64,000 bases of DNA from Vicinamibacterales bacterium. GTDB taxonomy: Bacteria > Acidobacteriota > Vicinamibacteria > Vicinamibacterales > UBA8438. The stretch spans positions 1,945,704-2,009,703 of the forward strand of contig CBDBMV010000002.1 in assembly GCA_965207665.1 (NCBI GenBank), read 5' to 3'. Below the pieces are notes generated by a model. That model saw nothing but the letters and a program-made list of their open reading frames with translations. It did not search any database and was not told the origin of the DNA. Positions 8,378 to 58,209 of this stretch are shown here, piece after piece. The translations under genes were made by a program, and so were the position numbers. Each line of letters begins with the position of its first letter. Positions within the stretch are counted from its first letter, which is position 1.

Positions 8378-8379
8378 GC

Positions 8380-25249: not shown

Positions 25250-25290
25250 GTTCACCGGCCGGTAAGTGGGTGGCGGATAGGAAGCAGCCG

Positions 25291-26673: not shown

Positions 26674-26898
26674 CCTCGCGGGACGCGAGATGATCAGTTC
26701 TCTTGCCACGGCTTCAGGCCTTTCTCTTGAGTGTCCCAATTCTAGCGCGATTGCGCCTCCAGTCAAGGCGCAGCTAGGCGCCCGCGTAGACAGGCAATCC
26801 AGCCGCGAATGGTGGTAGCCTACGAGCGGCCCGGAGGCTGCGGACGACCGGCCGCCGGGGGTTTGGGGCGCAGCCCCATGTAACAAAGGAACGTAGGC

Positions 26899-28962: not shown

Positions 28963-28987
28963 GACAGGATCCAGACAAGGAGTTGTG

Positions 28988-37959: not shown

Positions 37960-39948
37960 CTATGGCTCCGCCGGCGTGTACCAGATGGGGGAGCTCCAGG
38001 CGCGTTCCTTCACGGTCGGCGGGTCGGATGGGGGCGGCGCCATGCCGCGCGCCAGCGCGCGGTGGGTCGTCCACCGGCAGGTCGGGTTCTCGAGCACCCG
38101 GACGTAGTAGAACGCCCGCTGCGCGGGATCGAAATCCGGGTCGGTCCAGGTGGTGCTCAGCTCGGCGGCGCCCAGATCGGTCGAATAGCTGCAGTCGGAC
38201 AGGTCCACCGTGGCGCCGTTGTCCGCGCAGCGGCGGGTCTGCGGGTCGGGCTCCAGCCCGTCGGCGCAGGCGACGTCGTAGACCTGCTCGGCCGTCTGTA
38301 CGCCTGAAGGGGCGAACGGCGCCGAGGGCTCGCCGGTCTCGGCCCAACCCTTGACGATCTGGATCTTCTGCAGGTTCGCGCTCGCGGGGTCCCTCATGGC
38401 CCAGACGACGAAGCGGGGGCCGTCGAGGGTATCGCCGCCGGGCGGGTCCGGCAGGTCCGAGCCCATCGGCACGCCGCCGGCGTATGCCGCCTCCAGCATG
38501 TCTCGCCGGGTATCGAGGTCGGCGGGGTAGTCCCAGCCCGCGAAGAAGCGCACGGGGATGCGGGGACCGCTGTTGCCAAAGGTCTCGCGGCGGCGCAGCG
38601 CGTCGAAGATGGCGTCGCGCGTATTGGCATCGGCCCACACGCCGACCAGGCCGCCGGGATTGTTGGCGTTGCCGCCGTCGGGCCGATCGCCGAACCAGGC
38701 CGGGCCGCTGTCGGCACCCCGGCCCAGCATGCCGGAGCCGATGCCGCCGCTGGTGCCGAACTTGACCGGCCGGGTGGCGAATTCTTCCTCGTCGGCCGCT
38801 CCCGCGAGGCTCTGGTGGTCGTCCGGGCTGGCGATGAAGCCGAACTTGAACGGATTCACGCCGTAGTCGGCCTCCAGCCGCAGGCCGGCCTTGAGCGCGT
38901 TGCGGACGTAGTCCGACGCGGTGGCGCAGCCCCCGCGCTCGCCCGGCTCGCAGATGGGCTGGTAGGTCTCGAAGTTGCATTCCTCGTCCGTGGTGCCCAG
39001 CCCCACGTAGCACTCGGAGTTGCCCTTGATCTGGTGAATCTCGACCAGCGGCTCGGTCCGGGCGCGCAGGCGCAGCGTCTGCGGCGTATACGGTATCCAT
39101 GCGTATTCCTCGAAGGCCGAGCCGCCGCTCAGGTTGGAGTTGTGTGGAATCGCCAGCACCTGGCAGTCGCCAGTACACGCCTCCTCGAGCCATTTCCAGA
39201 GCCGCTCGGGACGGTTCTCCATCGCGACGGATGAGCCGCCCCACTCCGGCACGGCGCCACCGCGGAAGATGACGTTGCGGTGCAGGTGGCCGAAGCCGGG
39301 CGGGTTGGCCGTCCATTCGTACGCCGGAAAGGTGGTGAAGCGCCCCGGCTCGTTGAACGCGTCCGCGTTGCGCTGCACCGCGTGCCACTGGTGCCGCGCG
39401 CGCTCGTAGCACTTGTTGTCGGCGGACATGGCGGGCTCGTTCTGGCCGCAGATGTCGGCGGGCACACGCCCGCGCGCTTCGAAGTCCCCGTAGCCGAACC
39501 AGGCGCTGGCGCGGATCTGCTCGCAGGTGGGCGTGGCGTAGGCGGCATCGCTCTCGTCCAGGCACAGGTGGACGGTGCCGAGCCAGATGTCGTGGTCGGT
39601 CACCGCCATGAAGTCGAGAGGCACCCGCAACTGCAGCGTCCGTCCGTCGGCCGTCGTCACCTCCTCGCCCCGGCCGAAGCGGTACGCCATGGAGGGGTCG
39701 TTGCGGTTGCCGCCCAGCGAATAGGCGTCCAGGGACCAACTGCTGTGCACGTGGAAGTCGCCGTAGTAGGCGTTGCGCAGCGGGTTGCGCTCTACCTCCG
39801 GGGCGGCGGTGTCCGCCGCCGCGGCCGGTTGTGCCTCTTCTCCGCCGGGCGCATCCTGCTCCGGCCCGGCGCAGCCGGCCGCAAGCAGCGGCAGGCAGAT
39901 GGCCGCAAATGTCACGCCGCCGAAGAATCGAGAGCGCTTGCACCGCAT
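37960..39948 (-). CDS. DUF3604/PHP-like lipoprotein, array copy 1 (subtype A)
   Basis: Lipobox LLAAGC. NPLRNAYYGDFHVHSSWSLDAY, DFMAVTDH, HRNVIFRG, ACTGDCQVLAIPHNSNLSGG, EIHQIKGNSEC, FKFGFIASPDDHQS, NPTCRWTT, ERAWSSPIWYTP. Start ATG 39948 (or GTG 39954). Confidence 0.75.
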   Translation of the reverse strand: MRCKRSRFFGGVTFAAICLPLLAAGCAGPEQDAPGGEEAQPAAAADTAAPEVERNPLRNAYYGDFHVHSSWSLDAYSLGGNRNDPSMAYRFGRGEEVTTADGRTLQLRVPLDFMAVTDHDIWLGTVHLCLDESDAAYATPTCEQIRASAWFGYGDFEARGRVPADICGQNEPAMSADNKCYERARHQWHAVQRNADAFNEPGRFTTFPAYEWTANPPGFGHLHRNVIFRGGAVPEWGGSSVAMENRPERLWKWLEEACTGDCQVLAIPHNSNLSGGSAFEEYAWIPYTPQTLRLRARTEPLVEIHQIKGNSECYVGLGTTDEECNFETYQPICEPGERGGCATASDYVRNALKAGLRLEADYGVNPFKFGFIASPDDHQSLAGAADEEEFATRPVKFGTSGGIGSGMLGRGADSGPAWFGDRPDGGNANNPGGLVGVWADANTRDAIFDALRRRETFGNSGPRIPVRFFAGWDYPADLDTRRDMLEAAYAGGVPMGSDLPDPPGGDTLDGPRFVVWAMRDPASANLQKIQIVKGWAETGEPSAPFAPSGVQTAEQVYDVACADGLEPDPQTRRCADNGATVDLSDCSYSTDLGAAELSTTWTDPDFDPAQRAFYYVRVLENPTCRWTTHRALARGMAPPPSDPPTVKERAWSSPIWYTPAEP

Positions 39949-39979
39949 CGTCACACCTCCCGTGCTGCGGCCGCCGCGG

Positions 39980-41971
39980 CTATTGCCCCGCGGGCGTGTA
40001 CCAGATCGGCGAGCTCCACGCCCGCTCCTTGATAACCGGCGGCACGTCGACCGCCAGCTCGGCGCCGCTCTCCAGTGCGCGCCATGTCGTCCAGCGGCAG
40101 GTGGGATTCTCGAGCACCCGGACATAGTAGAACGCCCGCAGGGACGGATCGAACTCCGGGTCGGTCCAGGTTGCGCTCAGCTCCGCCGCGCCCGCGCCGC
40201 CCACCGTGCTGCAGTCGGCCAGGTTCACCTGCGCACCGTTGTCCGCGCACCGCCGCGTCCCGGGGTCCGGCGGTTGGCCATTGTCGCACGCCACGTCGTA
40301 TACCCGCTCGGCGGTGCCGCCGTCCGGGTCGTCCCAGCCCTTGACGATCTGCAGCTTCTGCAGGTGGGCGCTGTTCGCGTCGCGGGTGGCCCACACGACG
40401 AATTGCGGTGCGTCAGCGCCGCCGGTCGCCGCCGGCAGGTCGCCGCCCATCGGCACGCCGCTGCGGTAGCCCTCTGCGACCAGGTCCGGGCGCGTATGCG
40501 TGTCGGCCGGCAGTTCCCAGCCGCCGAAGAAGCGGATCCGGATGCTCGGGCCGCTCGTGGCGAACGTCTCGCGCCGCCTGAGGGCGTCGAAGATCGCGTC
40601 GCGCGTATTTTCTTCGGCCCAGACGGCGGCCAGGCCACCCGGATTGTTGACGGGCGTGCCCAGCGTCAGGGAGCGGAGCTCGGGATTGTTGAGGATGGTG
40701 CTCGGCGTCGTGGCGCCGATCTCGCCGAAGAAGCTGCCCTGCCACGCAACTTCGTCGACCGACCCCGACATGCTGCGGTGGTCGTCGGTGCTGCCGATGA
40801 TGCCGTACTTGAACGGGTTGATGCCGTGCTCAGCTTCGACCTCAAGACCGGTCTTGAGGGCGTTACGGACGAGGTTGGACGCGACGGTGCACCTGGCCAC
40901 GACCTGTTGCGGATTGGACGGCATCGTGTCCGGGTCGCAGGGCTCGAACACCTGCTCGAAGTTGCACTCCTCGTCCGAGGTGAGCAAACCGGATGCACAC
41001 TCCGAGTTGCCCTTGACCTGGTGGATTTCGATCAGCGGCTCGCGCCGCGCCCGCCGCTCGAGGATCTCGGTGGTGAACGGGGTGCCGTCGGCGTTGTTGG
41101 GCGCCAGCGCGACGCCCATCCCATAGTTGGTGTTGTGCGGAATGGCGATCACGTCGCAGTCGCCGGTGCACGCCGCGTCCATCCACTCCCAGAGCCGCTC
41201 CGGCGTATGCCGCGTGGCGACCGATGTCCCGTTGTCCCACGGTGGGATGTCGTCGCCGCGGAAGAATACGTTGCGATGCAGCATACCCCCGCTGGCCGAC
41301 TGCACCGCGGTGAACTCGAAGGCGGTGAACGTCGTGAACACGCCCGGCTCGTAGTAGGCGTCGGCCATCTCCCGAATCAGCGTCCACTGGTGTGCGGCGC
41401 GCTGGTCGCAGCGGTTGTCCGGACCGGGTTCCGCGCTGCCGCAGAACTCCGGGTCGCGCCGCGACTGGAGCCACGCGCCGCGGATGCGGGCAAAAAACGC
41501 CCCGCGGCTGCCTGACTCGAGCTCTCCGCACACGGCGAGGTCGCGGGTGGGCGCCTCGGGATCCTGGCAGAGCAGCACTTCGCCCATCCAGCCGGCGTGG
41601 TCGGTCACCGCCATGAAGTCGAGCGGCGTGCGCAGTTGCCCGCGCAGATTGCCGTCCGTGTCGGTGATCGGGTCGCCCCGGCCGTAGCGGTAGGCCACCG
41701 AGGGGTCGTTCTGCATCGGGTGGCCGAACGCCCAGGCGTCGAGCGACCAACTGCTGTGAACGTGCAGGTCGCCGAAGTAGGCGTTGCGGAGCGGGTTACG
41801 ATCCACTTCCGGGCCAGCCGGTGCATCCGTCGTGCCCGCCGGTTCTGCCTCCTGACCGCCGGGAGCGTCCTGCACGGGTCCCGCGCAGCCGGCCGCAAGC
41901 AGCAGCGGCAGGCAGATGGCCGCCAATTTCTCACCGCCGGGAAATCGACAGCGCGTACACCGCATCGTCAA
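39980..41971 (-). CDS. DUF3604/PHP-like lipoprotein, array copy 2 (subtype B)
   Basis: Lipobox LLAAGC. YFGDLHVHSSWSLDAWAFGHPMQNDPSVAYRYGRGDPITD, DFMAVTDH, AIPHNTNYGMG, EIHQVKGNSEC, FKYGIIGSTDDHRSMSGS, ERAWSSPIWYTP. Confidence 0.75.
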   Translation of the reverse strand: MTMRCTRCRFPGGEKLAAICLPLLLAAGCAGPVQDAPGGQEAEPAGTTDAPAGPEVDRNPLRNAYFGDLHVHSSWSLDAWAFGHPMQNDPSVAYRYGRGDPITDTDGNLRGQLRTPLDFMAVTDHAGWMGEVLLCQDPEAPTRDLAVCGELESGSRGAFFARIRGAWLQSRRDPEFCGSAEPGPDNRCDQRAAHQWTLIREMADAYYEPGVFTTFTAFEFTAVQSASGGMLHRNVFFRGDDIPPWDNGTSVATRHTPERLWEWMDAACTGDCDVIAIPHNTNYGMGVALAPNNADGTPFTTEILERRARREPLIEIHQVKGNSECASGLLTSDEECNFEQVFEPCDPDTMPSNPQQVVARCTVASNLVRNALKTGLEVEAEHGINPFKYGIIGSTDDHRSMSGSVDEVAWQGSFFGEIGATTPSTILNNPELRSLTLGTPVNNPGGLAAVWAEENTRDAIFDALRRRETFATSGPSIRIRFFGGWELPADTHTRPDLVAEGYRSGVPMGGDLPAATGGADAPQFVVWATRDANSAHLQKLQIVKGWDDPDGGTAERVYDVACDNGQPPDPGTRRCADNGAQVNLADCSTVGGAGAAELSATWTDPEFDPSLRAFYYVRVLENPTCRWTTWRALESGAELAVDVPPVIKERAWSSPIWYTPAGQ

Positions 41972-41990
41972 ACCTCCCAGGCTGCTGCTG

Positions 41991-43910
41991 CTAGCGCGCC
42001 GGCGGCGTGTACCAGATCGGGGAGCTCCAGGCGCGTTCCTTCACCGCCGGCGGGTCGGACGGGGGCGGCGCCACGCCGCGCGCCAGCGCCCGGTGCGTCG
42101 TCCAGCGACAGGTCGGGTTCTCCAGCACCCGCACATAGTAGAACGCCCGCAGCGCCGGGTCGAAATCCGGGTCGGTCCAGGTGGTGCTCAGCTCGGCCGC
42201 GCCCAGGTCGGTCGGGTAGCTGCAGTCCGAGAGGTCCACCGTGGCGCCGTTGTCGGCGCAGCGGCGCGTCTGCGGGTCCGGCTCCAGGCCGTCCGCGCAG
42301 GCGACGTCGTAGACCTGCTCGGCGGTCTGCCCGTCGGCCTCGGCCCATCCCTTCACGATCTGGACCTTTTGCAGGTTCGCGCTGTACGGATCCTTCATCG
42401 CCCAGACAACGAAGCGCGGGCCGTCGCCGGCGTTGCCGTCCTGTGGCTCCGGCAGGTCGCCGCCCATGGGCACGCCGCCGGCGTACGCCGCTTCGAGCAT
42501 GTCGCGGCGGGTGTCGAGGCCGGCGGGGTAGTCCCAGCCGGCGAAGAAGCGCACGTGGATGCGCGTGCCGCTGTTGCCGAACGTCTCGCGGCGGCGCAGG
42601 GCGTCGAAGATCGCCTCGCGCGTGTTGGCCTCCGCCCACACGCCAACCAGGCCGCCGGGATTGCTGCGGTTGCCGCCGTCTTCCCGGTCGTCCCACCAGC
42701 CTGCGCCGCCCAGCGCCTGTCCTACCAGCGGGAGGCCGCCGCCGGTGCCGAACTTGACCGGCTTCTCCGTGAAGTCGTCCTCGTCCGTCGCGCCCGGCAG
42801 GCTCTGGTGGTCGTCCGGGCTGGCGATGAAGCCGAACTTGAAGGGATTGACGCCGTAGTCGGCCTCGAGCCGCAGGCCCGTCTTCAGCGCGTTGCGGACG
42901 AGGTCCGGCGCATGGGCGCAGCGGCTCTGCTGGCCCGGCTCGCAGACGGGGTAGTAGTTCTCGAAGTTGCACTCCTCGTCCGTGGTGCCCAGGCCGCGGT
43001 AGCACTCGGAGTTGCCCTTGATCTGGTGGATCTCCACGAGCGGCTCGGCCCAGGCGCGCAGGCGCAGTATCTCCGGCGTGAACTGTGTCCAGCCGAACTC
43101 GCCGAACGCCAGACCGCCGCTCAGGTTGGAGTTGTGCGGAATGGCGACCACCTGGCAGTCGCCGGTGCAGGCCGCGTCCAGCCACTCCCAGAGCCGCTCG
43201 GGGCGGTTGCCCATCTCTACGGCCGCGCCACCCCACTCCGGCACCGCGTCGCCCCGGAAGATGACGTTGCGGTGCAGGTGGTTGCCGCCCGGGGTGGTCG
43301 TCCATTCGTACCCCGGGAAGGTGGTGAACACGCCCGGCTCATAGAATGCGTCCGCGGTCCTCTGGATCTCGTGCCACAGGTGCCGCGCCCGCTCGTAGCA
43401 CTTGTTGCCCGAGTCCATCGTGGCCGCGCGCTGCCCGCAGATTTCGGCCGGCCGCTGTCCCCGGCCCTCGTGCGTCCGCGGGGTGAACCAGGCGTTGGCG
43501 CGGAGCTGCTCGCAGGTGGGCGTGGCGTAGGCGGGGTCGCTGTCGTCGTTGCAGAGGTTGACCTCACCGATTCCGACGTCGTGGTCGGTAACCGCCATGA
43601 AGTCGAGCGGCACGCGCAGGCGGTGCACGGTGCCGTCGGCCTTGGTCACCTCTTCGCCCCGTCCGAAGCGGTACGCCAGAGCCGGGCCGTCGCGGTCGCC
43701 GCCCAGCACGTAGGCGTCCAGCGACCACCCGGTGTGCACGTGGAAGTCGCCGAAATAGGCGTTGCGCAGGGGGTTGCGCTCGGGTTCCGCGCCGCCGTCC
43801 GCAGATGTCTCGGCGCCGGTCACCGGAGAGTCCACGGCGGCGGGCGTATCGGGCGCAGATGGGGCGCATGCGGCCGCCACCAGCGGCAGGCAGACCGCCG
43901 CGAATCTCAC
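41991..43910 (-). CDS. DUF3604/PHP-like lipoprotein, array copy 3 (subtype A)
   Basis: GTG at 43910 overlaps the stop of copy 4 (GTGA). VRFAAVCLPLVAAAC lipobox. YFGDFHVHTGWSLDAY, DFMAVTDH, AIPHNSNLSGG, EIHQIKGNSEC, IASPDDHQS, ERAWSSPIWYTP. Confidence 0.7.
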   Translation of the reverse strand: MRFAAVCLPLVAAACAPSAPDTPAAVDSPVTGAETSADGGAEPERNPLRNAYFGDFHVHTGWSLDAYVLGGDRDGPALAYRFGRGEEVTKADGTVHRLRVPLDFMAVTDHDVGIGEVNLCNDDSDPAYATPTCEQLRANAWFTPRTHEGRGQRPAEICGQRAATMDSGNKCYERARHLWHEIQRTADAFYEPGVFTTFPGYEWTTTPGGNHLHRNVIFRGDAVPEWGGAAVEMGNRPERLWEWLDAACTGDCQVVAIPHNSNLSGGLAFGEFGWTQFTPEILRLRAWAEPLVEIHQIKGNSECYRGLGTTDEECNFENYYPVCEPGQQSRCAHAPDLVRNALKTGLRLEADYGVNPFKFGFIASPDDHQSLPGATDEDDFTEKPVKFGTGGGLPLVGQALGGAGWWDDREDGGNRSNPGGLVGVWAEANTREAIFDALRRRETFGNSGTRIHVRFFAGWDYPAGLDTRRDMLEAAYAGGVPMGGDLPEPQDGNAGDGPRFVVWAMKDPYSANLQKVQIVKGWAEADGQTAEQVYDVACADGLEPDPQTRRCADNGATVDLSDCSYPTDLGAAELSTTWTDPDFDPALRAFYYVRVLENPTCRWTTHRALARGVAPPPSDPPAVKERAWSSPIWYTPPAR

Positions 43911-45877: not shown

Positions 45878-45898
45878 GGCTGGGCCTCCCCGGGCTGC

Positions 45899-47848: not shown

Positions 47849-47855
47849 GACCGGG

Positions 47856-48863: not shown

Positions 48864-48879
48864 GCGGCGCGTCAAGCCG

Positions 48880-49755
48880 TCAGTTTCCCGCCGCATCGCC
48901 AGCCAGCGCGTCGGCGTCGACGACGATCTCGAACCGCCGGCGCAGCCCCTCGTAGTACGCGTCGGCCGCCGAGCGCAGCCGCTCCCCGCTGAGATCCCGC
49001 GCGAGCTGGCTGCGCACCTCGCCGAGCGCCGGCAGGCGCGACGGCACCCGCTGGCGGATGCGGACGACGTGCATGCCGTAGCTGGAGGGCACCGGGCCGC
49101 TCCACGCGTCCACCGGCAGCTCGAACAGCCGCCCGGCGAAGCGCGGGCCGAACAGGTCCCGGATCTGGTCGCGCGACTGTGGCGGGTACTCGTACTGCAA
49201 CATGAACCTGTCGCCCAACTGCGCCGCATCGGCGGTTGCGACCTCGCCCGAGGTCAGTTGCGCCAGCGCATCGCGGGCCGCGGCCTCGGCTCCCGCGCCC
49301 CGATTGCTGCCGCTGAAGTACACGTGGGAGAAGCTGACCTGGTCGGGAATGCGGTAGCGCTCCGCGTTCTCGTCGAAGAACGCCTGCAGCTCGGCATCGG
49401 ACGGCTCGACCGTCGAGGCGACGCTCTGCGCCAGGAACTCGACCTTCTGCGCCAGCCGGCGGCGGACGATGGTGTCGCCCTGATCGAGGCCCGACGCGAT
49501 TGCCTCGCGGTACAGCACCTCCTCGCGGATGAAGTCTTCGATCAGGCTGTCGAGCTCGCGCTGGGTAGGCGGCGCGCCCCGTTGCCGCGTCCACGTCTCG
49601 CGCAGTTGCTGGATGCGGTCCGCCGTAACTTCGATGCGGTTGCTGTTGTCGCCCATACCGAACGACTGGCCGAACAGGGCGCTAAGGCCGAACAGCACGC
49701 CGCCCGCCAGCAGGAAATGAACGAGCGGCTCTCGCAGCAGGCGGCGGAAATCCAT
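48880..49755 (-). CDS. Membrane-anchored parvulin-type peptidyl-prolyl cis-trans isomerase (PpiD/SurA-like)
   Basis: N-terminal TM helix LVHFLLAGGVLFGLSALFG. C-terminal rotamase-like block FSHVYF...FGPRFAGRLFELPVDAWSGPVPSSYGMHVVRI. Confidence 0.65.
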   Translation of the reverse strand: MDFRRLLREPLVHFLLAGGVLFGLSALFGQSFGMGDNSNRIEVTADRIQQLRETWTRQRGAPPTQRELDSLIEDFIREEVLYREAIASGLDQGDTIVRRRLAQKVEFLAQSVASTVEPSDAELQAFFDENAERYRIPDQVSFSHVYFSGSNRGAGAEAAARDALAQLTSGEVATADAAQLGDRFMLQYEYPPQSRDQIRDLFGPRFAGRLFELPVDAWSGPVPSSYGMHVVRIRQRVPSRLPALGEVRSQLARDLSGERLRSAADAYYEGLRRRFEIVVDADALAGDAAGN

Positions 49756-49758
49756 GCG

Positions 49759-51708: not shown

Positions 51709-51720
51709 GGCTGGGCCTCC

Positions 51721-53670
51721 TCAGCTTCCCGCAGGCGTGTACCAGATAGGCGAGCTCCAGGCGCGTTCCTTGACCGTCGGCGGGTCGGACGGGGGCGGCG
51801 CCACGCCGCGCGCCAGCGCCCGGTGCGTCGTCCAGCGGCAGGTCGGGTTCTCCAGCACGCGCACATAGTAGAACGCCCGTAGCGCCGGGTCGAAGTCCGG
51901 GTCGGTCCAGGTGGTGCTCAGCTCGGCCGTCCCGAGGTCGGTCGAATAGCTGCAGTCGGACAGGTCCACCCGCGCACCGTTGTCCGCGCAGCGCCGGGTC
52001 TCCGGGTTTGGCTGCAGCCCGTCGGCGCAGGCGACATCGTACACCTGCTCGGCGGCCTGCCCGTCGGCTGCGGCCCAGCCCTTGACGATCTGGACCTTCT
52101 GCAGGTTCGCGCTGTTGGGATCCTTCATGGCCCAGACGACGAAGCGCGGACCCTCGCCCGCGTCGCCGCCGGGCGGTTCCGGCAGGTCGGAGCCCATCGG
52201 CACGCCGCTGGCGTAGGCCGCCTCGACCATGTCGCGCCGGGTATCGAGGTCGGCGGGATAGTCCCAGCCGGCAAAGAAGCGGACATGGATCCGCGTGCCG
52301 CTGTTGCCGAAGGTCTCGCGGCGGCGCAGCGCGTCGAAGATCGCGTTGCGCGTGTTGGCTTCCGCCCACACCCCGACCAGGCCGCCGGGGTTGCTGATGT
52401 TGCCGCCGTCTTCCTTCTCGTCCCAGCCGAGGGGTCGGCCTATGGCGGCGAGGCCGCCGCCGTTGCTGAACTTCACCGGCTTGTCGGTGAAGTCGTCCTC
52501 ATCGGCCATTCCCGGCAGGCTCTGGTGGTCGTCCGGACTGGCGATGAATCCGAACTTGAACGGATTGACGCCGAAGTCGGCTTCCAGCAGCAGGCCGTTC
52601 TTCAACGCGTTGCGGACGAAGTCGGGCGCGTTCGCGCAGCCGCTGCGCTGACCCGGCTCGCAGACGGGGTAGTAGTTCTCGAAGTTGCACTCCTCGTCCG
52701 TCGTTCCCAGGCCGCGGTAGCACTCGGAGTTGCCCTTGATCTGGTGAATCTCCACCAGCGGCTCGGCCCAGGCGCGCAGCCGGAGCATCTCCGTCGTGTA
52801 CGGCGTCCAGCCGAACTCGTCGAACGCCAGCCCGCCGCTCAGGTTCGGGTTGTGCGGGATGGCGACCACCTGGCAGTCGCCGGTGCAGGCCGCTTCCAGC
52901 CACTCCCACAGCCGCTCGGGACGGTTCTGCATCTCGACGGCCCCGCCGCCCCACTCCGGCACCGCGTCGCCGCGAAAGATGACGTTGCGGTGCAGGTGGC
53001 CGTAGCCGCGCGGCTGGGCCGTCCACTCGTAGGCCGGGAAGGTGGTGAACACGCCGGGCTCGTTGAACGCTTCGGCATTGCGCTGGACCTCGCCCCACAG
53101 GTGCCGCGCCCGCTCGTAGCACTTGTTGTCCGCGGTCATCGTGGCTTCGGCCTGCCCGCAGATGTCCGGCGGCCGGTTGCCCCGGCCCTCGAACGCCCCG
53201 GTGCCGAACCACGCGTTGGCGCGGATCTGCTCGCACGTGGGCGTGTCGTACGCGGCGTCGCTTTCGTCGTTGCAGAGGTGCACCTGGCCAAGCCAGGTGT
53301 CGTGGTCGGTGACCGCCATGAAGTCCAGGGGCACCCGCAGGCGGTGCACGGTGCCGTCCGCCTTGGTCACCTCCTCGCCGCGCCCGAAGCGGTAGGCCAG
53401 CGACGGGTCGTCGCGGTTGCCGCCCAGCGAGTAGGCGTCCAGCGACCAACTGCTGTGCACGTGGAAGTCGCCGAAGTACGCGCTGCGCAGCGGGTTGCGT
53501 TCCGGGTCCGCGCCGCCGCCCGCCGGCGCTGCCGTCTCGGCAGCCGTTGAGTCCTCAGGCTCCGGCGCGGGTGCGGCGCATGACGCCGCCAGCACCACGA
53601 TCCCGATCAGGGCCGGCCAGTAGGTAGCCGGCCGCGCACGTCGCGTCCATCGTGACCGGCGTCTTGACAT
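51721..53670 (-). CDS. DUF3604/PHP-like lipoprotein, array copy 7 (subtype A)
   Basis: Internal ATG 53670 gives MSRRRSRWTRRARPATYWPALIGIVVLAASC (lipobox). The same catalytic blocks follow. The 888-aa track ORF extension overlaps copy 8 out of frame and was rejected. Confidence 0.7.
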   Translation of the reverse strand: MSRRRSRWTRRARPATYWPALIGIVVLAASCAAPAPEPEDSTAAETAAPAGGGADPERNPLRSAYFGDFHVHSSWSLDAYSLGGNRDDPSLAYRFGRGEEVTKADGTVHRLRVPLDFMAVTDHDTWLGQVHLCNDESDAAYDTPTCEQIRANAWFGTGAFEGRGNRPPDICGQAEATMTADNKCYERARHLWGEVQRNAEAFNEPGVFTTFPAYEWTAQPRGYGHLHRNVIFRGDAVPEWGGGAVEMQNRPERLWEWLEAACTGDCQVVAIPHNPNLSGGLAFDEFGWTPYTTEMLRLRAWAEPLVEIHQIKGNSECYRGLGTTDEECNFENYYPVCEPGQRSGCANAPDFVRNALKNGLLLEADFGVNPFKFGFIASPDDHQSLPGMADEDDFTDKPVKFSNGGGLAAIGRPLGWDEKEDGGNISNPGGLVGVWAEANTRNAIFDALRRRETFGNSGTRIHVRFFAGWDYPADLDTRRDMVEAAYASGVPMGSDLPEPPGGDAGEGPRFVVWAMKDPNSANLQKVQIVKGWAAADGQAAEQVYDVACADGLQPNPETRRCADNGARVDLSDCSYSTDLGTAELSTTWTDPDFDPALRAFYYVRVLENPTCRWTTHRALARGVAPPPSDPPTVKERAWSSPIWYTPAGS

Positions 53671-53681
53671 GCCGCGCCTCC

Positions 53682-55607
53682 TCAGTTTTCCTCCGGCGTA
53701 TACCAGATGGGCGAGCTCCAGGCCCGCTCCTTCACCGTCGGCGGGTCGGACGGCGGCGGCGCTACGCCGCGCGCCAGCGCCCGGTGGGTTGTCCAGCGGC
53801 AGGTCGGGTTCTCCAGCACCCGGACATAGTAGAACGCCCGCAGCGCCGGGTCGAAATCGGGGTCGGTCCAGGTGGTGCTCAGCTCGGGCGCGCCCAGGCC
53901 CATCGAGTAGCTGCAGTCGGACAGGTCGACGCGGGCGCCGTTGTCCGCGCAGCGGTGCGTCAGCGGGTCGGGCTCCAGGCCGTCGGCGCAGGCGACGTCG
54001 TACACCTGCTCTGCGGTCTGCCCGTCGGCCTCGGCCCAGCCCTTCACGACCTGGATCTTCTGCAGGTTCGCGCTGTAGGGATCCTTCATCGCCCAGACGA
54101 CGAAGCGGGGGCCGCTGCCCGGGTCGCCCGCGGGCAGGATCGGCAAATCGCTGCCCATGGGCACGCCGCCGGCGTACGCCGCCTCGACCATGTCGCGGCG
54201 GGTGTCTAGGTCGGCGGGGTAGTCCCAGCCGGCGAAGAAACGCACGTGGATGCGTGTGCCGCTGTTGCCGAACGTCTCGCGGCGGCGCAGGGCGTCGAAG
54301 ATGGAATCGCGCGTGTTGGCTTCGGCCCACACGCCGACCAGGCCGCCGGGATTGCTGCGGTTGCCGCCGTCGGCCCGCTCGTCCCATCCGAGGGGCAGGC
54401 CTATCACGTCGAGGCCGCCGCCATTGCTGAACTTCACCGGCTTGTCGGTGAAGTCGTCCTCGTCAACCATTCCCGGCAGGCTCTGGTGGTCGTCCGGACT
54501 GGCGATGAAGCCGAACTTGAAAGGATTGACGCCGAAGTCGGCCTCCAGCCGCAGGCCGGTCTTGAGCGCGTTACGGACGTAGTCCGGCGCGTGCGCGCAG
54601 AGTCTGCGTTGCCCAGGCTCGCAGGCCGGGTAGTAGTGCTCGAAGTTGCACTCCTCGTCCGTGGTTCCCAGGCCGCGGTGGCACTCCGAGTTGCCCTTGA
54701 TCTGGTGGATCTCCACCAGCGGCTCGGCCCAGGCGCGCAGACGGAGCATCTCGGTCGTGTACGGCGTCCAGCCGAACTCGTCGAACGCAAGCCCGCCGCT
54801 CATGTTCGGGTTGTGCGGGATGGCGACCACCTCGCAGTCGCCCGTGCAGGCCGCCTCCAGCCACTCCCACAGTCGCTCGGGCCGGTTCTGCATATCGACG
54901 GCCGAGCCGCCCCACTCAGGCACCGCGTCGCCGCGGAAGATGATGTTGCGATGCAATTTGCCGTAGCCGTTCGGTTGGACGGTCCACTCGTAGGCCGGGA
55001 AGGTGGTGAACACGCCGGGCTCGTTGAACGCTTCGGCGTTGCGCTGGACCTCGCCCCACAGGTGCCGCGCCCGCTGATAGCACTTGTTGTCGGCGGTCAT
55101 CGCGGCTTCGGCCTTCCCGCAGATGTCCGGGGGGCGCCGGCCCCGGCCCCAGTGGCTCGCGTAGTCGAACCAGGCGCTGGCGCGGATCTGCTCGCAGGTG
55201 GGCGTGGCGTAGGCGGCGTCGCTCTCGTCGTTGCAGAGGTGGACGGTGCCGAGCCAGATGTCGTGGTCGGTGACCGCCATGAAGTCCAGGGGCACCCGCA
55301 GGCGGTGCACGGTGCCGTCCGCCTTCGTCACCTCCTCGCCGCGCCCGAAGCGGTACGCCAGCGAGGGGTCGTCGCGGTTGCCGCCCAGCGAGTAGGCGTC
55401 CAGCGACCAACTGCTGTGCACGTGGAAGTCGCCGAAGTACGCGTTGCGCAGCGGATTGCGCTCCGGCTCCGCGCTGGCGCTCGCCACCTCGGCTTGGGCC
55501 GTCTCCTCATCCCGCACGTCAGGTGCATCCGGCACGGTTCCACCGCAGGCGCCCGCGAGCAGGCCGCTCGCGGTCAGGACCAGACGCACGACAGCGGGTG
55601 CAACCAT
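53682..55607 (-). CDS. DUF3604/PHP-like lipoprotein, array copy 8 (subtype A)
   Basis: SGLLAGAC lipobox. YFGDFHVHSSWSLDAY, DFMAVTDH, AIPHNPNMSGG, EIHQIKGNSEC, IASPDDHQS, ERAWSSPIWYTP. Confidence 0.75.
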   Translation of the reverse strand: MVAPAVVRLVLTASGLLAGACGGTVPDAPDVRDEETAQAEVASASAEPERNPLRNAYFGDFHVHSSWSLDAYSLGGNRDDPSLAYRFGRGEEVTKADGTVHRLRVPLDFMAVTDHDIWLGTVHLCNDESDAAYATPTCEQIRASAWFDYASHWGRGRRPPDICGKAEAAMTADNKCYQRARHLWGEVQRNAEAFNEPGVFTTFPAYEWTVQPNGYGKLHRNIIFRGDAVPEWGGSAVDMQNRPERLWEWLEAACTGDCEVVAIPHNPNMSGGLAFDEFGWTPYTTEMLRLRAWAEPLVEIHQIKGNSECHRGLGTTDEECNFEHYYPACEPGQRRLCAHAPDYVRNALKTGLRLEADFGVNPFKFGFIASPDDHQSLPGMVDEDDFTDKPVKFSNGGGLDVIGLPLGWDERADGGNRSNPGGLVGVWAEANTRDSIFDALRRRETFGNSGTRIHVRFFAGWDYPADLDTRRDMVEAAYAGGVPMGSDLPILPAGDPGSGPRFVVWAMKDPYSANLQKIQVVKGWAEADGQTAEQVYDVACADGLEPDPLTHRCADNGARVDLSDCSYSMGLGAPELSTTWTDPDFDPALRAFYYVRVLENPTCRWTTHRALARGVAPPPSDPPTVKERAWSSPIWYTPEEN

Positions 55608-55641
55608 CTGCGCCGTTTTTCCTTTCTCGATACCGCGATCG

Positions 55642-55965
55642 CTATCCCGGGTGCGCCGAGACGTACGTTTCCACCGTCGGCAGCGTGCTGATGGCAGCGC
55701 CCGCCTTTTCTTCGGCCAGACGCAGCTCGTAGAGCTTCTGCAGGTTCAACCAGAACTGCGGGCTGGTGCCGAAGAAGTGGGCCAGACGCAACGCCGTGTC
55801 GCCGGTGATGCGGCGCTGCCCGTTGAGGATCGCGGTGATGCGGTTGGTCGGCACCTCGATATGCCGACCCAACGCAGCGGCGCTCATGCCGATCTCTCGC
55901 AGTTCCTCGGCAAGATGCTCTCCCGGATGTATCGCTGCAATACCCAAAATAAATGTCCTCCTCAC
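55642..55965 (-). CDS. higA: HigA-family antitoxin (XRE-type HTH, addiction-module antidote protein)
   Basis: IHPGEHLAEELREIGMSAAALGRHIEVPTNRITAILNGQRRITGDTALRLAHFFGTSPQFWLNLQKLYEL is a near-textbook HigA sequence. It lies 22 nt downstream of higB. Confidence 0.9.
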   Translation of the reverse strand: MRRTFILGIAAIHPGEHLAEELREIGMSAAALGRHIEVPTNRITAILNGQRRITGDTALRLAHFFGTSPQFWLNLQKLYELRLAEEKAGAAISTLPTVETYVSAHPG

Positions 55966-55987
55966 GCGCTGCCCTGGCGCGTCGTGA

Positions 55988-56278
55988 TTACGAGTGATAG
56001 TCGACGATCTCTACATCGGCAAACTCCTGCGGCTTGTCCTTGACGCACTTGAAACATATCCGCCAGCGGTCGTTGATCCGGATGCTGTATTGACCTTCTC
56101 GATCTCCCTTCAGAGCCTCCAGACGGTTGCCGCGCAACGCCGCCAGATCCTGGATGGACTCGGCCGCTTCCAGGCGGTCCAGCTTGAGTCGAGCAGCGCA
56201 CTTGATGCCGTCCAGGGCCTTCACGCGCTTGCCGGCCGCGAACTTCTCTGTTCTCTCGTCGCGGTAGCTGACGATCAC
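55988..56278 (-). CDS. higB: HigB-family toxin (RelE/ParE superfamily, plasmid-maintenance-system killer protein)
   Basis: MIVSYRDERTEKFAAGKRVK...AARLKLDRLEAAESIQDLAALRGNRLEALKGDREGQYSIRINDRWRICF...VEIVDYH. GTG start. Toxin-first gene order is typical of higBA. Confidence 0.9.
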   Translation of the reverse strand: MIVSYRDERTEKFAAGKRVKALDGIKCAARLKLDRLEAAESIQDLAALRGNRLEALKGDREGQYSIRINDRWRICFKCVKDKPQEFADVEIVDYHS

Positions 56279-56322
56279 GCGTCCGAGCCTGGCAGATAGT
56301 ACTCGTTACGTCAAGCGTAATT

Positions 56323-58209
56323 TCAGGGCGTGTACCAGATTGGGGAGCTCCAGGCCCGCTCCTTGATCACCGGCGGCACGTTGTCGGGCAGTTCGCCGCC
56401 GTTCTCCAGTGCGCGCCAGGTGGTCCAGCGGCAGGTTGGATTCTCGAGCACCCGCACGTAGTAGAACGCCCGCACCGACGGATCGAACTCGGGATCGGTC
56501 CAGGAGGCGCTCAGCTCCGCCGCGCCGGCGCCGCCCGTCGTGCTGCAGTCGGCCAGGTTCACCTGCGCGTCGTTGTCCGCGCAGCGGCGCGTCTCCGGGT
56601 CCGGCGGCTGACCGCTGTCGCACGCCACGTCGTACACCTGCTCGGCGGTGCCGCCATCGGGGTCGTCCCACCCCTTGACGACCTGCAGCTTCTGCAGGTG
56701 CGCGCTGTTCGCGTCGCGGGTCGCCCAGACCACGAATTGGGGCGCGCTGGCGCCGTCGCGCGCTGCCGGCAGGTCGCCGCCCATCGGCACGCCACTCCGG
56801 TAGCCCTCTTCGACCAGGTCCGGGCGGGTGTGGAGGTCGGCCGGCAGGTCCCAGCCGCCGAAGAAGCGGACCCGCATCCGGGGCCCGCTCGTCGCGAACG
56901 TCTCGCGCCGCCTGAGCGCGTCGAAGATGGAGTCGCGCGTGTTCTCTTCGGCCCAGACCGCCGCCAGTCCGCCCGGATTGTTCAGCGGCGTCCCGGGCGT
57001 CGTCGCGCCGATCTCGCCGAAGAAGTCGCCCTGCCAGGTTTCCTCCACGGCCGATCCCGACATGCTGCGGTGGTCGTCGGTGCTGCCGATGATGCCGTAC
57101 TTGAACGGGTTGATGCCGTGCTCGGCCTCGACCTCCAGGCCCGTCTTGAGCGCGTTGCGGACGAAGTTGGAGGCGACCGTGCAACTGGCGGCGCCGAGCT
57201 CCGGATCGGACGGCTGATTGTCCGGATCGCAGGGTTCGAAGACCTGCTCGAAGTTGCACTCCTCGTCCGAGGTGAGCAGCCCCGGCGCGCACTCCGAGTT
57301 CCCCTTGACCTGGTGGATCTCGATCAGCGGCTCCCGCCGGATCCGCCGCTCCAGGATCTCGGGCGTGAATGGCGTGCCGTCGGCGTTGTTGGGCGCCAGC
57401 ACGACGCCCATGCCGTAGTTGGTGTTGTGCGGAATGGCGATCACGTCGCAGTCGCCGGTGCATGCCTCGTCCATCCACTCCCAGAGCCGCTCCGGCGAGT
57501 GCCGCGTCGCGATCGACGCCCCGCCGCCCCACGGCGGGATGTCCTCGCCGCGAAAGAAGACGTTGCGGTGCAGCCAGCCGCCGGTCGCGGGGTCCGAGCC
57601 GGTGAACTCGAAGGCGGTGAAGGTGGTGAACACGCCCGGCTCGTAGTAGGCGTCGGCGACTTCCTGCACCATGGGCCACTGATGCGCGGCGCGCTGGTCG
57701 CAGCGGTTGTCCGGGCCCGGCTCCGTGCTGCCGCACAGCTCCAGGTCGCGCTGGTTTCGGTTCGCCGCGCCGTAGTGCCGCATGAACGCCGCGCCCCCAC
57801 CGGCGCGCACCTCCTCGCAGACCGGCAGCTCGTAGGTGTCCGCCTCCGGATCCTGGCAGAGCTGCACCTCGCCGAAGAAGTTGTCGTGGTCGGTCACCGC
57901 CATGAAGTCGAGCGGCGTGCGCAACTGCCCGCGCAGATTGCCGTCGGCGTCGGTTATCGGATCGCCCCGGCCGTAGCGGTACGCCACCGACGGGTCGTTC
58001 TGCATCGGGTGGCCGAACGTCCAGGCGTCGAGCGACCAGCTCGTGTGGACGTGCAGGTCGCCGAAGAATGCGTTGCGGAGGGGGTTGCCGGCGCCGCCGC
58101 CGGACTGCGCGGTTTCCTCGCTGCCCGCGCTTCCGCCGTCCTCATCCGGTGCGGGCGGACCCGCGCAGCCGACCAGCAAGGCGGCCAGTCCGATGAGGAG
58201 CGCACGCAT
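56323..58209 (-). CDS. DUF3604/PHP-like lipoprotein, array copy 9 (subtype B)
   Basis: ATG 58209 shares one nt with the upstream stop (TGATG). MRALLIGLAALLVGC lipobox. FFGDLHVHTSWSLDAWTFGHPMQNDPSVAYRYGRGDPITD, AIPHNTNYGMG, EIHQVKGNSEC, IIGSTDDHRSMSGS, ERAWSSPIWYTP. Confidence 0.7.
   Translation of the reverse strand: MRALLIGLAALLVGCAGPPAPDEDGGSAGSEETAQSGGGAGNPLRNAFFGDLHVHTSWSLDAWTFGHPMQNDPSVAYRYGRGDPITDADGNLRGQLRTPLDFMAVTDHDNFFGEVQLCQDPEADTYELPVCEEVRAGGGAAFMRHYGAANRNQRDLELCGSTEPGPDNRCDQRAAHQWPMVQEVADAYYEPGVFTTFTAFEFTGSDPATGGWLHRNVFFRGEDIPPWGGGASIATRHSPERLWEWMDEACTGDCDVIAIPHNTNYGMGVVLAPNNADGTPFTPEILERRIRREPLIEIHQVKGNSECAPGLLTSDEECNFEQVFEPCDPDNQPSDPELGAASCTVASNFVRNALKTGLEVEAEHGINPFKYGIIGSTDDHRSMSGSAVEETWQGDFFGEIGATTPGTPLNNPGGLAAVWAEENTRDSIFDALRRRETFATSGPRMRVRFFGGWDLPADLHTRPDLVEEGYRSGVPMGGDLPAARDGASAPQFVVWATRDANSAHLQKLQVVKGWDDPDGGTAEQVYDVACDSGQPPDPETRRCADNDAQVNLADCSTTGGAGAAELSASWTDPEFDPSVRAFYYVRVLENPTCRWTTWRALENGGELPDNVPPVIKERAWSSPIWYTP

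What the first reader, a model, noticed from the sequence alone, without database searches (positions are those of the whole stretch)
37960..58209. Nine tandem DUF3604/PHP-like lipoprotein paralogs in one co-directional ~20-kb array
Nine intact genes of 628-663 aa lie head-to-tail on the minus strand. Each encodes a lipobox N-terminus (L-A/V-A/G/S-C), a low-complexity Pro/Ala/Glu linker and the same ordered blocks. Those blocks are GD(F/L)HVH(S/T)xWSLD, DFMAVTDH, HRNV(I/F)FRG, ACTGDC..AIPHN, EIHQ(I/V)KGNSEC, DDH, NPTCRWTT and ERAWSSPIWYTP. The His/Asp-rich blocks look like PHP-superfamily metal ligands and are kept in all nine copies, so none looks like a decaying pseudogene. Many conserved Cys residues fit an extracytoplasmic, disulfide-bonded location. 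To my knowledge DUF3604 has no assigned function, and nine copies in one transcription-unit-like run headed by a TonB-dependent receptor is very unusual. Hypothesis: a TonB-linked battery of cell-envelope metallo-hydrolases with diversified specificities, analogous in logic to a polysaccharide-utilisation locus but built from different parts.
Basis: partly seen in the sequence, partly recalled or inferred. Interest (0 to 1): 0.82.

Follow-up and report, generated by a model that had tools for sequence, protein, structure and literature searches.

The report
Nine-copy DUF3604 metallo-hydrolase lipoprotein operon
A soil acidobacterium (order Vicinamibacterales) carries nine old, intact, diverged copies of an uncharacterised cell-envelope metal-enzyme gene in one operon-like run, next to a protein-folding helper and a metal transporter that accompany this enzyme family in many bacterial phyla; this gives a concrete handle on a protein family whose function nobody has tested.

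Summary
Nine intact DUF3604 genes (628-662 aa, Pfam E 1e-182 to 1e-193) lie co-directionally on the minus strand at 37960-58209. Each has a lipobox, an acidic 26-30 aa linker and exactly 14 Cys.

The run is not pure. A parvulin-type PPIase plus a HupE/UreJ_2 permease sit between copies 5 and 6. A higBA toxin-antitoxin insertion sits between copies 8 and 9.

The copies form two subfamilies (54-58% identity between them) and are at most 87.7% identical in DNA. Eight of the nine have their own orthologue in related Vicinamibacterales, whose arrays hold 3, 5, 7 or 8 copies. This is an old, retained expansion, not an artefact.

An AlphaFold model (pLDDT 85.5) matches only a PHP-like phosphoesterase with a beta-sandwich (3e38). 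All putative metal ligands are invariant. No paper or solved structure assigns a function.

The family-wide partners are the PPIase-HupE pair. They occur in 31 of 73 DUF3604 loci. Conversely, 40 of 62 HupE_2 loci carry DUF3604. The TonB-type barrel is linked only in this lineage.

Best reading: a battery of lipid-anchored, metal-dependent ester hydrolases with diverged pocket loops, plus a dedicated foldase and metal supply. The substrate is unknown.

The parts
60562..63681 (-). Oar-type TonB-dependent-receptor-like outer-membrane barrel (1039 aa), first gene of the run
   Evidence: Pfam CarboxypepD_reg 1.8e-16 and OMP_b-brl_4 1.3e-20. The Plug match is sub-threshold (17.3 bits, E 0.007 on the fragment). 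Orthologues sit upstream of the array in L001, L002, L018 and L075.
59128..60549 (-). X473: signal peptide, c-type haem motif (CxxCH at 54-58) and a PHM/dopamine-beta-hydroxylase-like copper-monooxygenase fold
   Evidence: The AF2 model (pLDDT 78) hits 1phm and 4zel at E 4e-9, probability 1.0. C54, C57, H58, H212, H213, H266, H268, H334 and H336 are invariant. More than 7000 homologues were found; the 120 listed carry no Pfam domain.
58209..59114 (-). X301: secreted protein of unknown family, always paired with X473
   Evidence: No Pfam or NCBIfam hit. The pair is conserved in L001, L002, L015, L075 and L077, and occurs a second time in the window.
56323..58209 (-). D9, DUF3604 lipoprotein, subfamily B (628 aa)
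55988..56278 (-). higB toxin (inserted module)
   Evidence: Pfam HigB-like_toxin 1e-12. Absent from L075, where the D9 and D8 orthologues abut. GC is 0.607 against 0.70 in the array.
55642..55965 (-). higA antitoxin (inserted module)
   Evidence: TIGR02607 antidote_HigA 2.7e-25, 88 bits against a cut-off of 47.7.
53682..55607 (-). D8, DUF3604 lipoprotein, subfamily A (641 aa)
51721..53670 (-). D7, DUF3604 lipoprotein, subfamily A (649 aa)
49759..51708 (-). D6, DUF3604 lipoprotein, subfamily A (649 aa); the copy that was modelled
48880..49755 (-). Parvulin (PpiC)-type PPIase-like protein with a hydrophobic N-terminal segment (predicted membrane anchor); putative foldase
   Evidence: Pfam Rotamase_2 1.3e-17. 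Found next to DUF3604 in 31 of 73 loci across phyla. Found directly upstream of HupE_2 in 61 of 62 loci.
47856..48863 (-). HupE/UreJ_2-type metal permease with an N-terminal periplasmic domain
   Evidence: Pfam HupE_UreJ_2 4.2e-49. The H-x5-D-H motif is present in 28 of 28 partners. The predicted mature N-terminus is His.
45899..47848 (-). D5, DUF3604 lipoprotein, subfamily B (649 aa)
43907..45877 (-). D4, DUF3604 lipoprotein, subfamily A (656 aa)
41991..43910 (-). D3, DUF3604 lipoprotein, subfamily A (639 aa; GTG start overlaps the D4 stop)
39980..41965 (-). D2, DUF3604 lipoprotein, subfamily B (661 aa)
   Evidence: Weak CehA/McbA metallohydrolase hit (20 bits).
37960..39948 (-). D1, DUF3604 lipoprotein, subfamily A (662 aa), last gene of the array
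   Evidence: Its 5' end is shared with D2.

Best explanation
The locus is a 16-gene, operon-like run. Its core is nine anciently duplicated DUF3604 paralogues.

Each copy is exported and probably lipid-anchored through a lipobox Cys and a flexible acidic tether. Each is probably stabilised by disulfide bonds, given 14 invariant Cys. Each folds as a PHP-type barrel followed by a C-terminal beta-sandwich.

The invariant residues are H70-x-H72, D78, D122-H123, E215, H227, H273 and D380-x-H382 (D6 numbering). I infer that they bind a bi- or trinuclear metal centre that activates water to cleave an ester bond. The bond is most probably a phospho- or sulfo-ester and less probably a carboxyl, carbamate or lactone ester.

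About 250 aa of Cys-rich insertions over the barrel form the substrate pocket. These insertions are where the paralogues differ, so the nine enzymes probably take different substrates.

The parvulin-type PPIase (putatively membrane-anchored) and the HupE_2 permease lie in the middle of the array. I infer that they are the family's own foldase and metal-supply partners.

Upstream lie an Oar-type TonB-like barrel, a cytochrome-c/PHM-like copper monooxygenase and its partner X301. These are a lineage-specific addition. They may import the substrates and process them oxidatively.

Shown: family membership, fold class, residue invariance, export signals, orthology and synteny. Inferred: metal binding, hydrolysis, substrate class, co-transcription, and the roles of the PPIase and HupE.
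For: - Full-length PF12228 matches for all nine copies.
- AF2 model of D6: pLDDT 85.5, pTM 0.86, with strand/helix alternation in the N-terminal part and putative ligands at strand ends.
- Foldseek against the PDB: only 3e38 is significant (PHP-like phosphoesterase plus second domain; E 6.5e-6, probability 1.0, TM 0.48 on the target).
- hhalign places H70, H72 and D78 on the residues I recall as YcdX His7, His9 and His15.
- All candidate ligands and 14 Cys are invariant in 84 sequences.
- Lipobox, linker and Cys count.
- dN/dS is 0.20-0.35 within subfamilies.
- In an NJ tree D1-D6, D8 and D9 each group with a copy from relatives (D2 and D8 with L075 only); D7 has no positional orthologue in L075.
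- 19 (subfamily A) and 12 (subfamily B) residues are fixed per orthogroup; all with an assignable position lie before residue 430. They include 73, 124-125, 217-219 and 379, next to ligand motifs.
- Variability peaks at 135-174, 275-294, 335-354 and 395-434.
- The DUF3604-PPIase-HupE_2 triad occurs in Acidobacteriota, Alpha-, Beta- and Gammaproteobacteria and Myxococcota (31 of 73 loci).
- Reciprocal test from HupE_2: the PPIase is adjacent in 61 of 62 loci and DUF3604 within 8 kb in 40 of 62. These loci also cover Verrucomicrobiota, Planctomycetota, Bacteroidota and Chloroflexota.
- The HupE H-x5-D-H motif is conserved in 28 of 28 partners.
- Ester-hydrolase neighbours elsewhere: sulfatases in 15 of 73 loci. 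In Microbulbifer the order is sulfatase, DUF3604, DUF3604, sulfatase, with a third sulfatase and a HAD hydrolase on the opposite strand.
- A PHP-like hydrolase (McbA) is reported to cleave a carbamate ester (PMC8292978).
Against: - No biochemical datum exists for any DUF3604 protein.
- Sequence-level links to PHP are weak. There is no Pfam PHP hit at E <= 10 and no PDB hit with a family profile. hhalign covers only 18 columns at E 0.023.
- The CehA/McbA match is 20 bits against a cut-off of 80, and it covers the C-terminal part.
- I could not read model coordinates, so ligand geometry and disulfide pairing are unverified.
- D78 replaces the third His, and H227 lies near the start of a predicted strand rather than its end.
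- The PPIase-HupE_2 pair also occurs without DUF3604 nearby in 22 of 62 loci, sometimes with a second HupE or an OmpR-type two-component system. It may therefore be a general metal module.
- Co-transcription is inferred only from spacing.
- Only about a third of homologues show a lipobox.
Confidence: 0.5

Rival explanations
1. Isozyme redundancy or dosage. The nine copies act on the same substrate. They are kept for expression level or for different conditions (metal availability, pH, temperature), not for different specificities.
For: All ligand and core motifs are identical in the nine copies. The C-terminal half is almost invariant. Copy number varies freely among close relatives (3, 5, 7, 8, 9), as expected for a dosage trait.
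Against: The copies are old (12-46% amino-acid divergence). Eight of the nine have their own orthologue in other genomes. Two deep subfamilies, plus a third in relatives, are interleaved. Orthogroup-fixed differences sit beside ligand motifs and in pocket-forming insertions.
Confidence: 0.2
2. The TonB-like barrel, X473 and X301 form a separate functional unit that merely abuts the DUF3604 module. The hydrolases do not work on imported substrates. They serve envelope or metal physiology together with the PPIase and HupE.
For: The barrel is linked to DUF3604 only in one Vicinamibacterales clade. A second X473/X301 pair in the window lies away from any DUF3604 gene. In L077 the barrel gene is divergently oriented. 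Clade-2 relatives have a third-subfamily DUF3604 at this position instead.
Against: The spacing is tight, with no gap or terminator between X301 and D9 (the codons overlap as TGATG). X473-X301 sits directly beside DUF3604 in five further loci, including the rearranged L015 and L077.
Confidence: 0.3
3. DUF3604 proteins are not enzymes. They are periplasmic metal-binding, buffering or storage lipoproteins that work with the HupE permease.
For: The strongest conserved partner is a metal permease. The invariant His/Asp/Glu could simply bind metal. The PPIase-HupE pair is sometimes linked to OmpR-type sensor systems.
Against: A 600-aa barrel with a deep, variable, Cys-rich cap is an extravagant metal buffer. 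Neighbours in other phyla are catabolic enzymes (sulfatases, PQQ dehydrogenases). All characterised PHP-fold proteins I know of are hydrolases (background knowledge).
Confidence: 0.07
4. The array is an assembly artefact (mis-assembled expansion of fewer copies).
For: It is a repetitive gene family in a high-GC genome. Reads were not available.
Against: Nucleotide identity between copies is at most 87.7%. Each copy has a distinct signal peptide and linker. Independent assemblies, including the complete chromosome OY760136.1, show the same order with 7 and 8 copies.
Confidence: 0.01

Closest known systems
Pfam PF12228 (DUF3604), an uncharacterised family
   Same: All nine proteins match the whole 591-position profile at 606-644 bits.
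   Different: Nothing at the domain level. New here: the nine-copy array, the two interleaved subfamilies, and the defined synteny with the PPIase and HupE_2.
PHP-superfamily metal-dependent hydrolases: BVU_3505 (PDB 3e38), E. coli YcdX, and the carbaryl hydrolases CehA/McbA
   Same: The barrel fold with a following beta-sandwich is the only significant structural match. The N-terminal HxH...(H/D) motif aligns with YcdX. The order of His/Glu/His/His/Asp-x-His resembles the trinuclear PHP site (my recollection of the YcdX ligands). McbA shows that PHP-like enzymes can cleave non-phosphate esters (PMC8292978).
   Different: No HMM-level similarity to PHP or to CehA/McbA. The proteins are about twice the size, owing to four Cys-rich insertions. 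They are exported lipoproteins. Asp stands at the third ligand position.
Bacteroidota polysaccharide-utilisation loci (SusC/SusD plus lipoprotein hydrolase batteries)
   Same: The logic is shared: an outer-membrane TonB-type barrel is followed by several lipoprotein hydrolases. One relative (L077) has a Reg_prop/Y_Y_Y sensor kinase upstream.
   Different: No SusD is present. The SusC model scores 16 bits against a cut-off of 368. There are no CAZyme domains. The barrel is Oar-type. The barrel linkage is confined to one clade.
Metalloenzyme operons that carry their own HupE/UreJ permease (hydrogenase hup and urease ure clusters)
   Same: A HupE-family permease with the H-x5-D-H motif is encoded beside a putative metalloenzyme.
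   Different: The permease belongs to the HupE_UreJ_2 subfamily and has an extra periplasmic N-domain. The client is extracytoplasmic. The accessory is a parvulin PPIase rather than Hyp/Ure proteins. The metal is unknown.
Dedicated parvulin foldases (PrsA, PpiD, SurA, NifM)
   Same: It has a Rotamase_2 domain, a putative membrane anchor, and a gene next to its presumed client. There are weak NifM and PpiD model hits.
   Different: All equivalog scores are far below cut-off. No client relationship has been demonstrated.

Membership tests
DUF3604 (PF12228) | Whole-protein HMM score above the gathering cut-off (20.4 bits), with full profile coverage | tested here: met
   606-644 bits, profile positions 2-591 of 591, all nine copies.
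PHP superfamily | Distorted (beta/alpha)7 barrel resembling solved PHP proteins | tested here: met
   Foldseek top and only significant hit is 3e38 (E 6.5e-6, probability 1.0, TM 0.48 on the target). The model has pLDDT 85.5.
PHP superfamily | Sequence-profile match to the PHP domain (PF02811 or relatives) | tested here: not met
   No Pfam family other than DUF3604 at E <= 10. A family profile finds no PDB relative.
PHP superfamily | Conserved metal-ligand motifs (HxH, H, E, H, H, DxH) in order | tested here: inconclusive
   H70, H72, D78, D122/H123, E215, H227, H273, D380 and H382 are invariant. Only motif I is aligned to YcdX by hhalign (E 0.023). The third ligand is Asp, not His.
PHP superfamily | Bi- or trinuclear metal site geometry and hydrolytic activity | not testable with these tools
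No biochemistry was possible.
CehA/McbA metallohydrolase (NF038032) | Score above the curated cut-off (80 bits) | tested here: not met
   20.3 bits for D2 only, covering the C-terminal part.
Bacterial lipoprotein | Signal peptide ending in a lipobox with invariant Cys (PROSITE PS51257-type pattern) | tested here: met
   Regex match in all nine, with Cys at positions 15-31. Lipidation itself was not testable.
TonB-dependent receptor | Plug domain followed by a 22-strand barrel | tested here: inconclusive
   Barrel: OMP_b-brl_4 at 1.3e-20. Plug: 14-17 bits against a cut-off of 23.9, at the expected position. The TonB box was not examined.
Polysaccharide-utilisation locus | SusC/SusD pair | tested here: not met
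   TIGR04056 scores 16 bits against a cut-off of 368. No SusD-like gene lies in the run.
HupE/UreJ permease | Pfam HupE_UreJ_2 match and the H-x5-D-H motif | tested here: met
   166.7 bits. The motif HILSGIDH is present, and the motif is conserved in 28 of 28 partners.
HigBA toxin-antitoxin | HigB-like toxin gene followed by a HigA HTH antitoxin gene | tested here: met
   PF05015 at 1e-12; TIGR02607 at 88 bits against a cut-off of 47.7.
PHM/DBH copper monooxygenases (for X473) | Two-domain beta-sandwich fold with HH...H and HxH...M copper sites | tested here: inconclusive
   Fold met: more than 30 PHM/DBH chains hit, from E 4e-9 to 5e-6. HH, HxH and HxH motifs are invariant. No Pfam Cu2_monooxygen hit at E <= 1. 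Copper binding was not testable.

The most novel reading that the evidence does not exclude
DUF3604 defines a new class of extracytoplasmic PHP-fold metalloenzymes. It has its own cross-phylum maturation module: a parvulin foldase plus a HupE_2 metal permease that loads the site in the periplasm. In Vicinamibacterales this module has been expanded into a new kind of substrate-utilisation locus. That locus comprises an Oar-type TonB barrel, a cytochrome-c-fused PHM-like copper monooxygenase and up to nine specialised hydrolases. It would attack ester-linked soil organic matter (organic phosphorus or sulfur) by combined oxidative and hydrolytic chemistry.
Probability: 0.25. Interest if true: 0.8.

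Novelty: new variant of a known kind. Interest (0 to 1): 0.58.

Why it matters
DUF3604 is widespread. A profile search found 1620 clusters (at 50% identity) at E <= 1e-30 and 6584 at E <= 1e-10 among 1.84 billion representatives. It occurs from Chlamydia to marine Gammaproteobacteria, yet it has no structure, no assay and effectively no literature.

This locus and its relatives supply what a functional study needs:
- a confident fold assignment with a candidate metal site;
- two conserved accessory genes to co-express;
- a natural panel of nine diverged paralogues;
- recurrent neighbours (sulfatases and PQQ dehydrogenases) that narrow the substrate class.

Vicinamibacterales are abundant soil bacteria. 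A large battery of envelope ester hydrolases would bear on how they mobilise organic phosphorus or sulfur. The adjacent unannotated cytochrome-c/PHM-like family (more than 7000 homologues) is a second lead.

Tried and rejected
- Sequence searches of the PDB with D6 and with the 84-sequence family profile found nothing.
- Pfam at E <= 10 gave no PHP-type hit.
- hhalign against E. coli YcdX aligned only motif I.
- Literature searches for DUF3604, PF12228, HupE with lanthanide, and Vicinamibacter with PQQ and TonB gave no functional information.
- Promoter and terminator scans showed no signal above shuffled controls, so operon structure rests on spacing alone.
- PDB sequence searches for X473 and for the barrel protein were empty.
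- I mislabelled one neighbour cluster as TonB-like. It is actually the PSD/DUF1592-type family. I corrected this by using tblastn with the window's barrel protein.
- I considered a Tat signal for D4 and D7. The motifs are not convincing.
- I considered a lanthanide link, because the neighbouring PQQ dehydrogenases carry the D-Y-D motif. No evidence ties DUF3604 to it.
- I looked for an alternative client in HupE_2 loci that lack DUF3604. No shared family emerged, only a second HupE or an OmpR-type two-component system in some loci.

Full report
**1. What is there**

The window has about 69% GC. Its closest relatives are Vicinamibacterales (Acidobacteriota) genomes, with up to 92-97% protein identity.

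ORF listing and junction inspection show a tightly packed run of 16 genes on the minus strand, from 63681 down to 37960. In order of transcription they are:

| Gene | Coordinates |
|---|---|
| Outer-membrane barrel | 60562-63681 |
| X473 | 59128-60549 |
| X301 | 58209-59114 |
| D9 | 56323-58209 |
| higB | 55988-56278 |
| higA | 55642-55965 |
| D8 | 53682-55607 |
| D7 | 51721-53670 |
| D6 | 49759-51708 |
| PPIase | 48880-49755 |
| HupE-like | 47856-48863 |
| D5 | 45899-47848 |
| D4 | 43907-45877 |
| D3 | 41991-43910 |
| D2 | 39980-41965 |
| D1 | 37960-39948 |

Spacers range from a small overlap to 44 nt, and GGAGG-like sites precede many of the starts. Consensus scans find no promoter or terminator excess inside the run. 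The run is therefore operon-like, but co-transcription is not shown.

**2. Check of the observation**

All nine D genes match Pfam DUF3604 over the whole profile, with E between 6e-182 and 2e-193. None has an internal stop.

Each has a lipobox with Cys at position 15-31. Each has a 26-30 residue acidic Pro/Ala/Glu/Gly linker. Each has exactly 14 Cys in the mature part.

The description needs three amendments:
- Four other genes interrupt the array.
- Two genes lie between the barrel gene and the first copy.
- The barrel protein is an Oar-type protein (CarboxypepD_reg plus OMP_b-brl_4) with only a sub-threshold Plug match.

**3. Not an artefact, and not recent**

The copies fall into two subfamilies:
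- Subfamily A is D1, D3, D4, D6, D7 and D8 (75-88% identity).
- Subfamily B is D2, D5 and D9 (78-81% identity).
- A and B are 54-58% identical to each other.

The highest nucleotide identity between any two copies is 87.7% (D6 and D7). dN/dS within subfamilies is 0.20-0.35.

Related genomes carry the same locus with different copy numbers:
- 3 copies in L005 and L077;
- 5 copies in L007 and L009;
- 7 copies in the complete chromosome OY760136.1 (L002 plus L076);
- 8 copies in L075.

In a neighbour-joining tree, D1-D6, D8 and D9 each group with a copy from relatives rather than with other window copies. For D2 and D8 the only such relative is L075. D7 groups with the single copy of a second species clade and has no positional orthologue in the closest relative, L075.

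A third subfamily, about 43% identical, exists in some relatives but not in the window. The expansion therefore predates these species, and the copies are individually retained.

**4. Fold**

The AlphaFold2 model of D6 has pLDDT 85.5 and pTM 0.86. Only the signal peptide and linker are disordered.

Foldseek against the PDB gives two matches at E <= 0.001. Both are chains of 3e38, a two-domain protein containing a predicted PHP-like metal-dependent phosphoesterase (E 6.5e-6, probability 1.0).

hhalign against E. coli YcdX aligns only motif I. It places H70, H72 and D78 on the residues I recall as YcdX His7, His9 and His15 (E 0.023).

Sequence-level links are otherwise absent. The only exception is a 20-bit CehA/McbA hit for D2.

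I infer a PHP-type metal site formed by H70, H72, D78, H123, E215, H227, H273, D380 and H382. I could not verify its geometry.

Compared with 3e38 (343 aa), DUF3604 carries about 250 extra residues. They lie in Cys-rich insertions at roughly 124-205, 275-300, 311-350 and 383-430.

**5. Where the paralogues differ**

Residues that are fixed within each orthogroup but differ between orthogroups number 19 for subfamily A and 12 for subfamily B. All with an assignable position lie before residue 430, in the catalytic half.

Several of them abut ligand motifs:
- 73, just after H72;
- 124-125, just after H123;
- 217-219, just after E215;
- 379, just before D380.

Entropy among the nine copies peaks in the insertions (135-174, 275-294, 335-354, 395-434). 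It is minimal in the C-terminal beta-sandwich. This pattern is what diversification of a substrate pocket would produce. It is not proof.

**6. Conserved partners**

In 73 DUF3604 loci from species-representative genomes, the PPIase is present in 31 and HupE_2 in 28. These loci cover Acidobacteriota, Alpha-, Beta- and Gammaproteobacteria and Myxococcota.

In the reciprocal search, starting from a HupE_2 alignment, I examined 62 loci of at least 9 kb. They additionally cover Verrucomicrobiota, Planctomycetota, Bacteroidota, Chloroflexota and others. The PPIase is directly upstream in 61. DUF3604 lies within 8 kb on the same strand in 40.

Loci without DUF3604 share no alternative client. Some have a second HupE or an OmpR-type two-component system.

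The HupE signature H-x5-D-H is present in 28 of 28 partners. The predicted mature N-terminus is a His in most.

By contrast, the barrel gene is linked only in one Vicinamibacterales clade (L001, L002, L018 and L075).

Other recurrent neighbours of DUF3604 are:
- sulfatases, in 15 of 73 loci (in Microbulbifer the order is sulfatase, DUF3604, DUF3604, sulfatase, with a third sulfatase and a HAD hydrolase on the opposite strand);
- PQQ alcohol dehydrogenases, in 17 of 73 loci;
- soluble PQQ glucose/sorbosone dehydrogenases, in 12 of 73 loci, often immediately adjacent.

**7. Mechanism proposed**

The DUF3604 proteins are exported, lipid-tethered and probably disulfide-bonded PHP-fold hydrolases. 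A multinuclear metal centre would cleave ester bonds.

Phospho- or sulfo-esters are the most likely substrates. Characterised PHP enzymes are phosphoesterases, and sulfatases recur as neighbours. Carbamate, carboxyl or lactone esters remain possible. McbA gives a precedent for a non-phosphate ester (PMC8292978), and the PQQ sugar dehydrogenase neighbours would produce lactones.

The PPIase is the probable foldase and HupE_2 the probable metal supplier.

In this lineage the module was multiplied and joined to an Oar-type barrel, X473 and X301.

X473 is a cytochrome-c-fused protein with a PHM/dopamine-beta-hydroxylase fold (E 4e-9). This suggests oxidative processing alongside hydrolysis.

Confidence in the general statement is about 0.5. 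The substrate class is a guess.

**8. Comparison and novelty**

Membership in DUF3604 is certain. Membership in the PHP superfamily is supported by fold only. The locus is not a polysaccharide-utilisation locus, because it has neither SusD nor a SusC-level match.

The family is moderately large (1620 clusters at E <= 1e-30) and functionally blank.

I found no description of the multi-orthogroup array, of the cross-phylum DUF3604-PPIase-HupE_2 triad, or of the fusion with a PHM-like module.

I rate it a new variant of a known kind, with interest 0.58. Arrays of 3-8 copies in relatives make nine the extreme of a continuum, and no function has been demonstrated. However, the locus makes an unexplored family directly testable.

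Noticed in passing
window 59128-60549 (-); second copy 25291-26886 (-): X473 is an unannotated family. More than 7000 homologues were found, and the 120 listed carry no Pfam domain. It combines a c-type haem motif (CxxCH) with a PHM/dopamine-beta-hydroxylase-like fold and invariant HH, HxH and HxH motifs. This would be a bacterial cytochrome-c-fused copper monooxygenase. It is always followed by a ~300-aa partner (X301 at 58209-59114; second copy at 24371-25483).
   Followed up: partly
window 28913-30637 (+) and 30656-32329 (+): Two NHL-repeat beta-propeller proteins lie just downstream of the second PHM-like pair and a PQQ dehydrogenase. In animals the partner of PHM is PAL, which is an NHL-type propeller (from memory). 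A bacterial PHM-plus-lyase pairing is conceivable.
   Followed up: no
window 18621-20735, 22223-24337, 26899-28962 (all +); 905-3580 (-): Three full-length PQQ alcohol-dehydrogenase paralogues carry the W-D-Y-D motif. The extra Asp is typical of lanthanide-dependent XoxF/PedH-type enzymes (from memory). They lack the vicinal Cys-Cys. A fourth PQQ enzyme also matches a cytochrome c domain. PQQ dehydrogenases recur near DUF3604 in 17 of 73 loci.
   Followed up: partly
window 55642-56278 (-): The higB/higA toxin-antitoxin pair is inserted between D9 and D8. Its GC is 0.607 against 0.70 in the array. It is absent from the closest relative, L075, where the two orthologues abut. This looks like a recent insertion inside an operon.
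   Followed up: yes
window 39650-39948 and 41670-41965 (-): D1 (subfamily A) and D2 (subfamily B) share 82-83% nucleotide identity over their first ~300 nt, including the ribosome-binding region, signal peptide and linker. Elsewhere they share about 60-65%. This indicates exchange of 5' ends between neighbouring paralogues.
   Followed up: partly
L019, L021, L022, L024 (Microbulbifer); L061 (Mesorhizobium); L028, L029, L032, L053, L069: Outside Vicinamibacterales, DUF3604 genes sit directly beside formylglycine-type sulfatases (15 of 73 loci). In Thermoanaerobaculia, Ca. Multivorans and Holophagales they sit beside sGDH (PF07995) and PQQ-ADH genes.
   Followed up: partly
L077 1558-5162: In one relative, a Reg_prop/Y_Y_Y-HisKA_3 sensor kinase and a LuxR-type response regulator lie just upstream of the run X472, X301, two DUF3604 genes, PPIase, HupE and a third DUF3604. 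This sensor architecture is known from Bacteroides hybrid two-component systems that regulate polysaccharide-utilisation loci (from memory).
   Followed up: no
L003-L010, about 2 kb upstream of the D9 orthologue: A third, deeply divergent DUF3604 subfamily (about 43% identity to any window copy) occupies the position taken by X301/X473 in the window's clade.
   Followed up: partly
window 7109-10827 (-) and 14470-17736 (-): There is a Planctomycete-type DUF1552 (HXXSHH) gene, with an adjacent ORF (8380-10827) that clusters with the PSD/PSCyt-domain gene of L073. There is also a second Oar-type barrel gene (32% identical to the first). The whole window is dense in exported redox and metal enzymes.
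   Followed up: no
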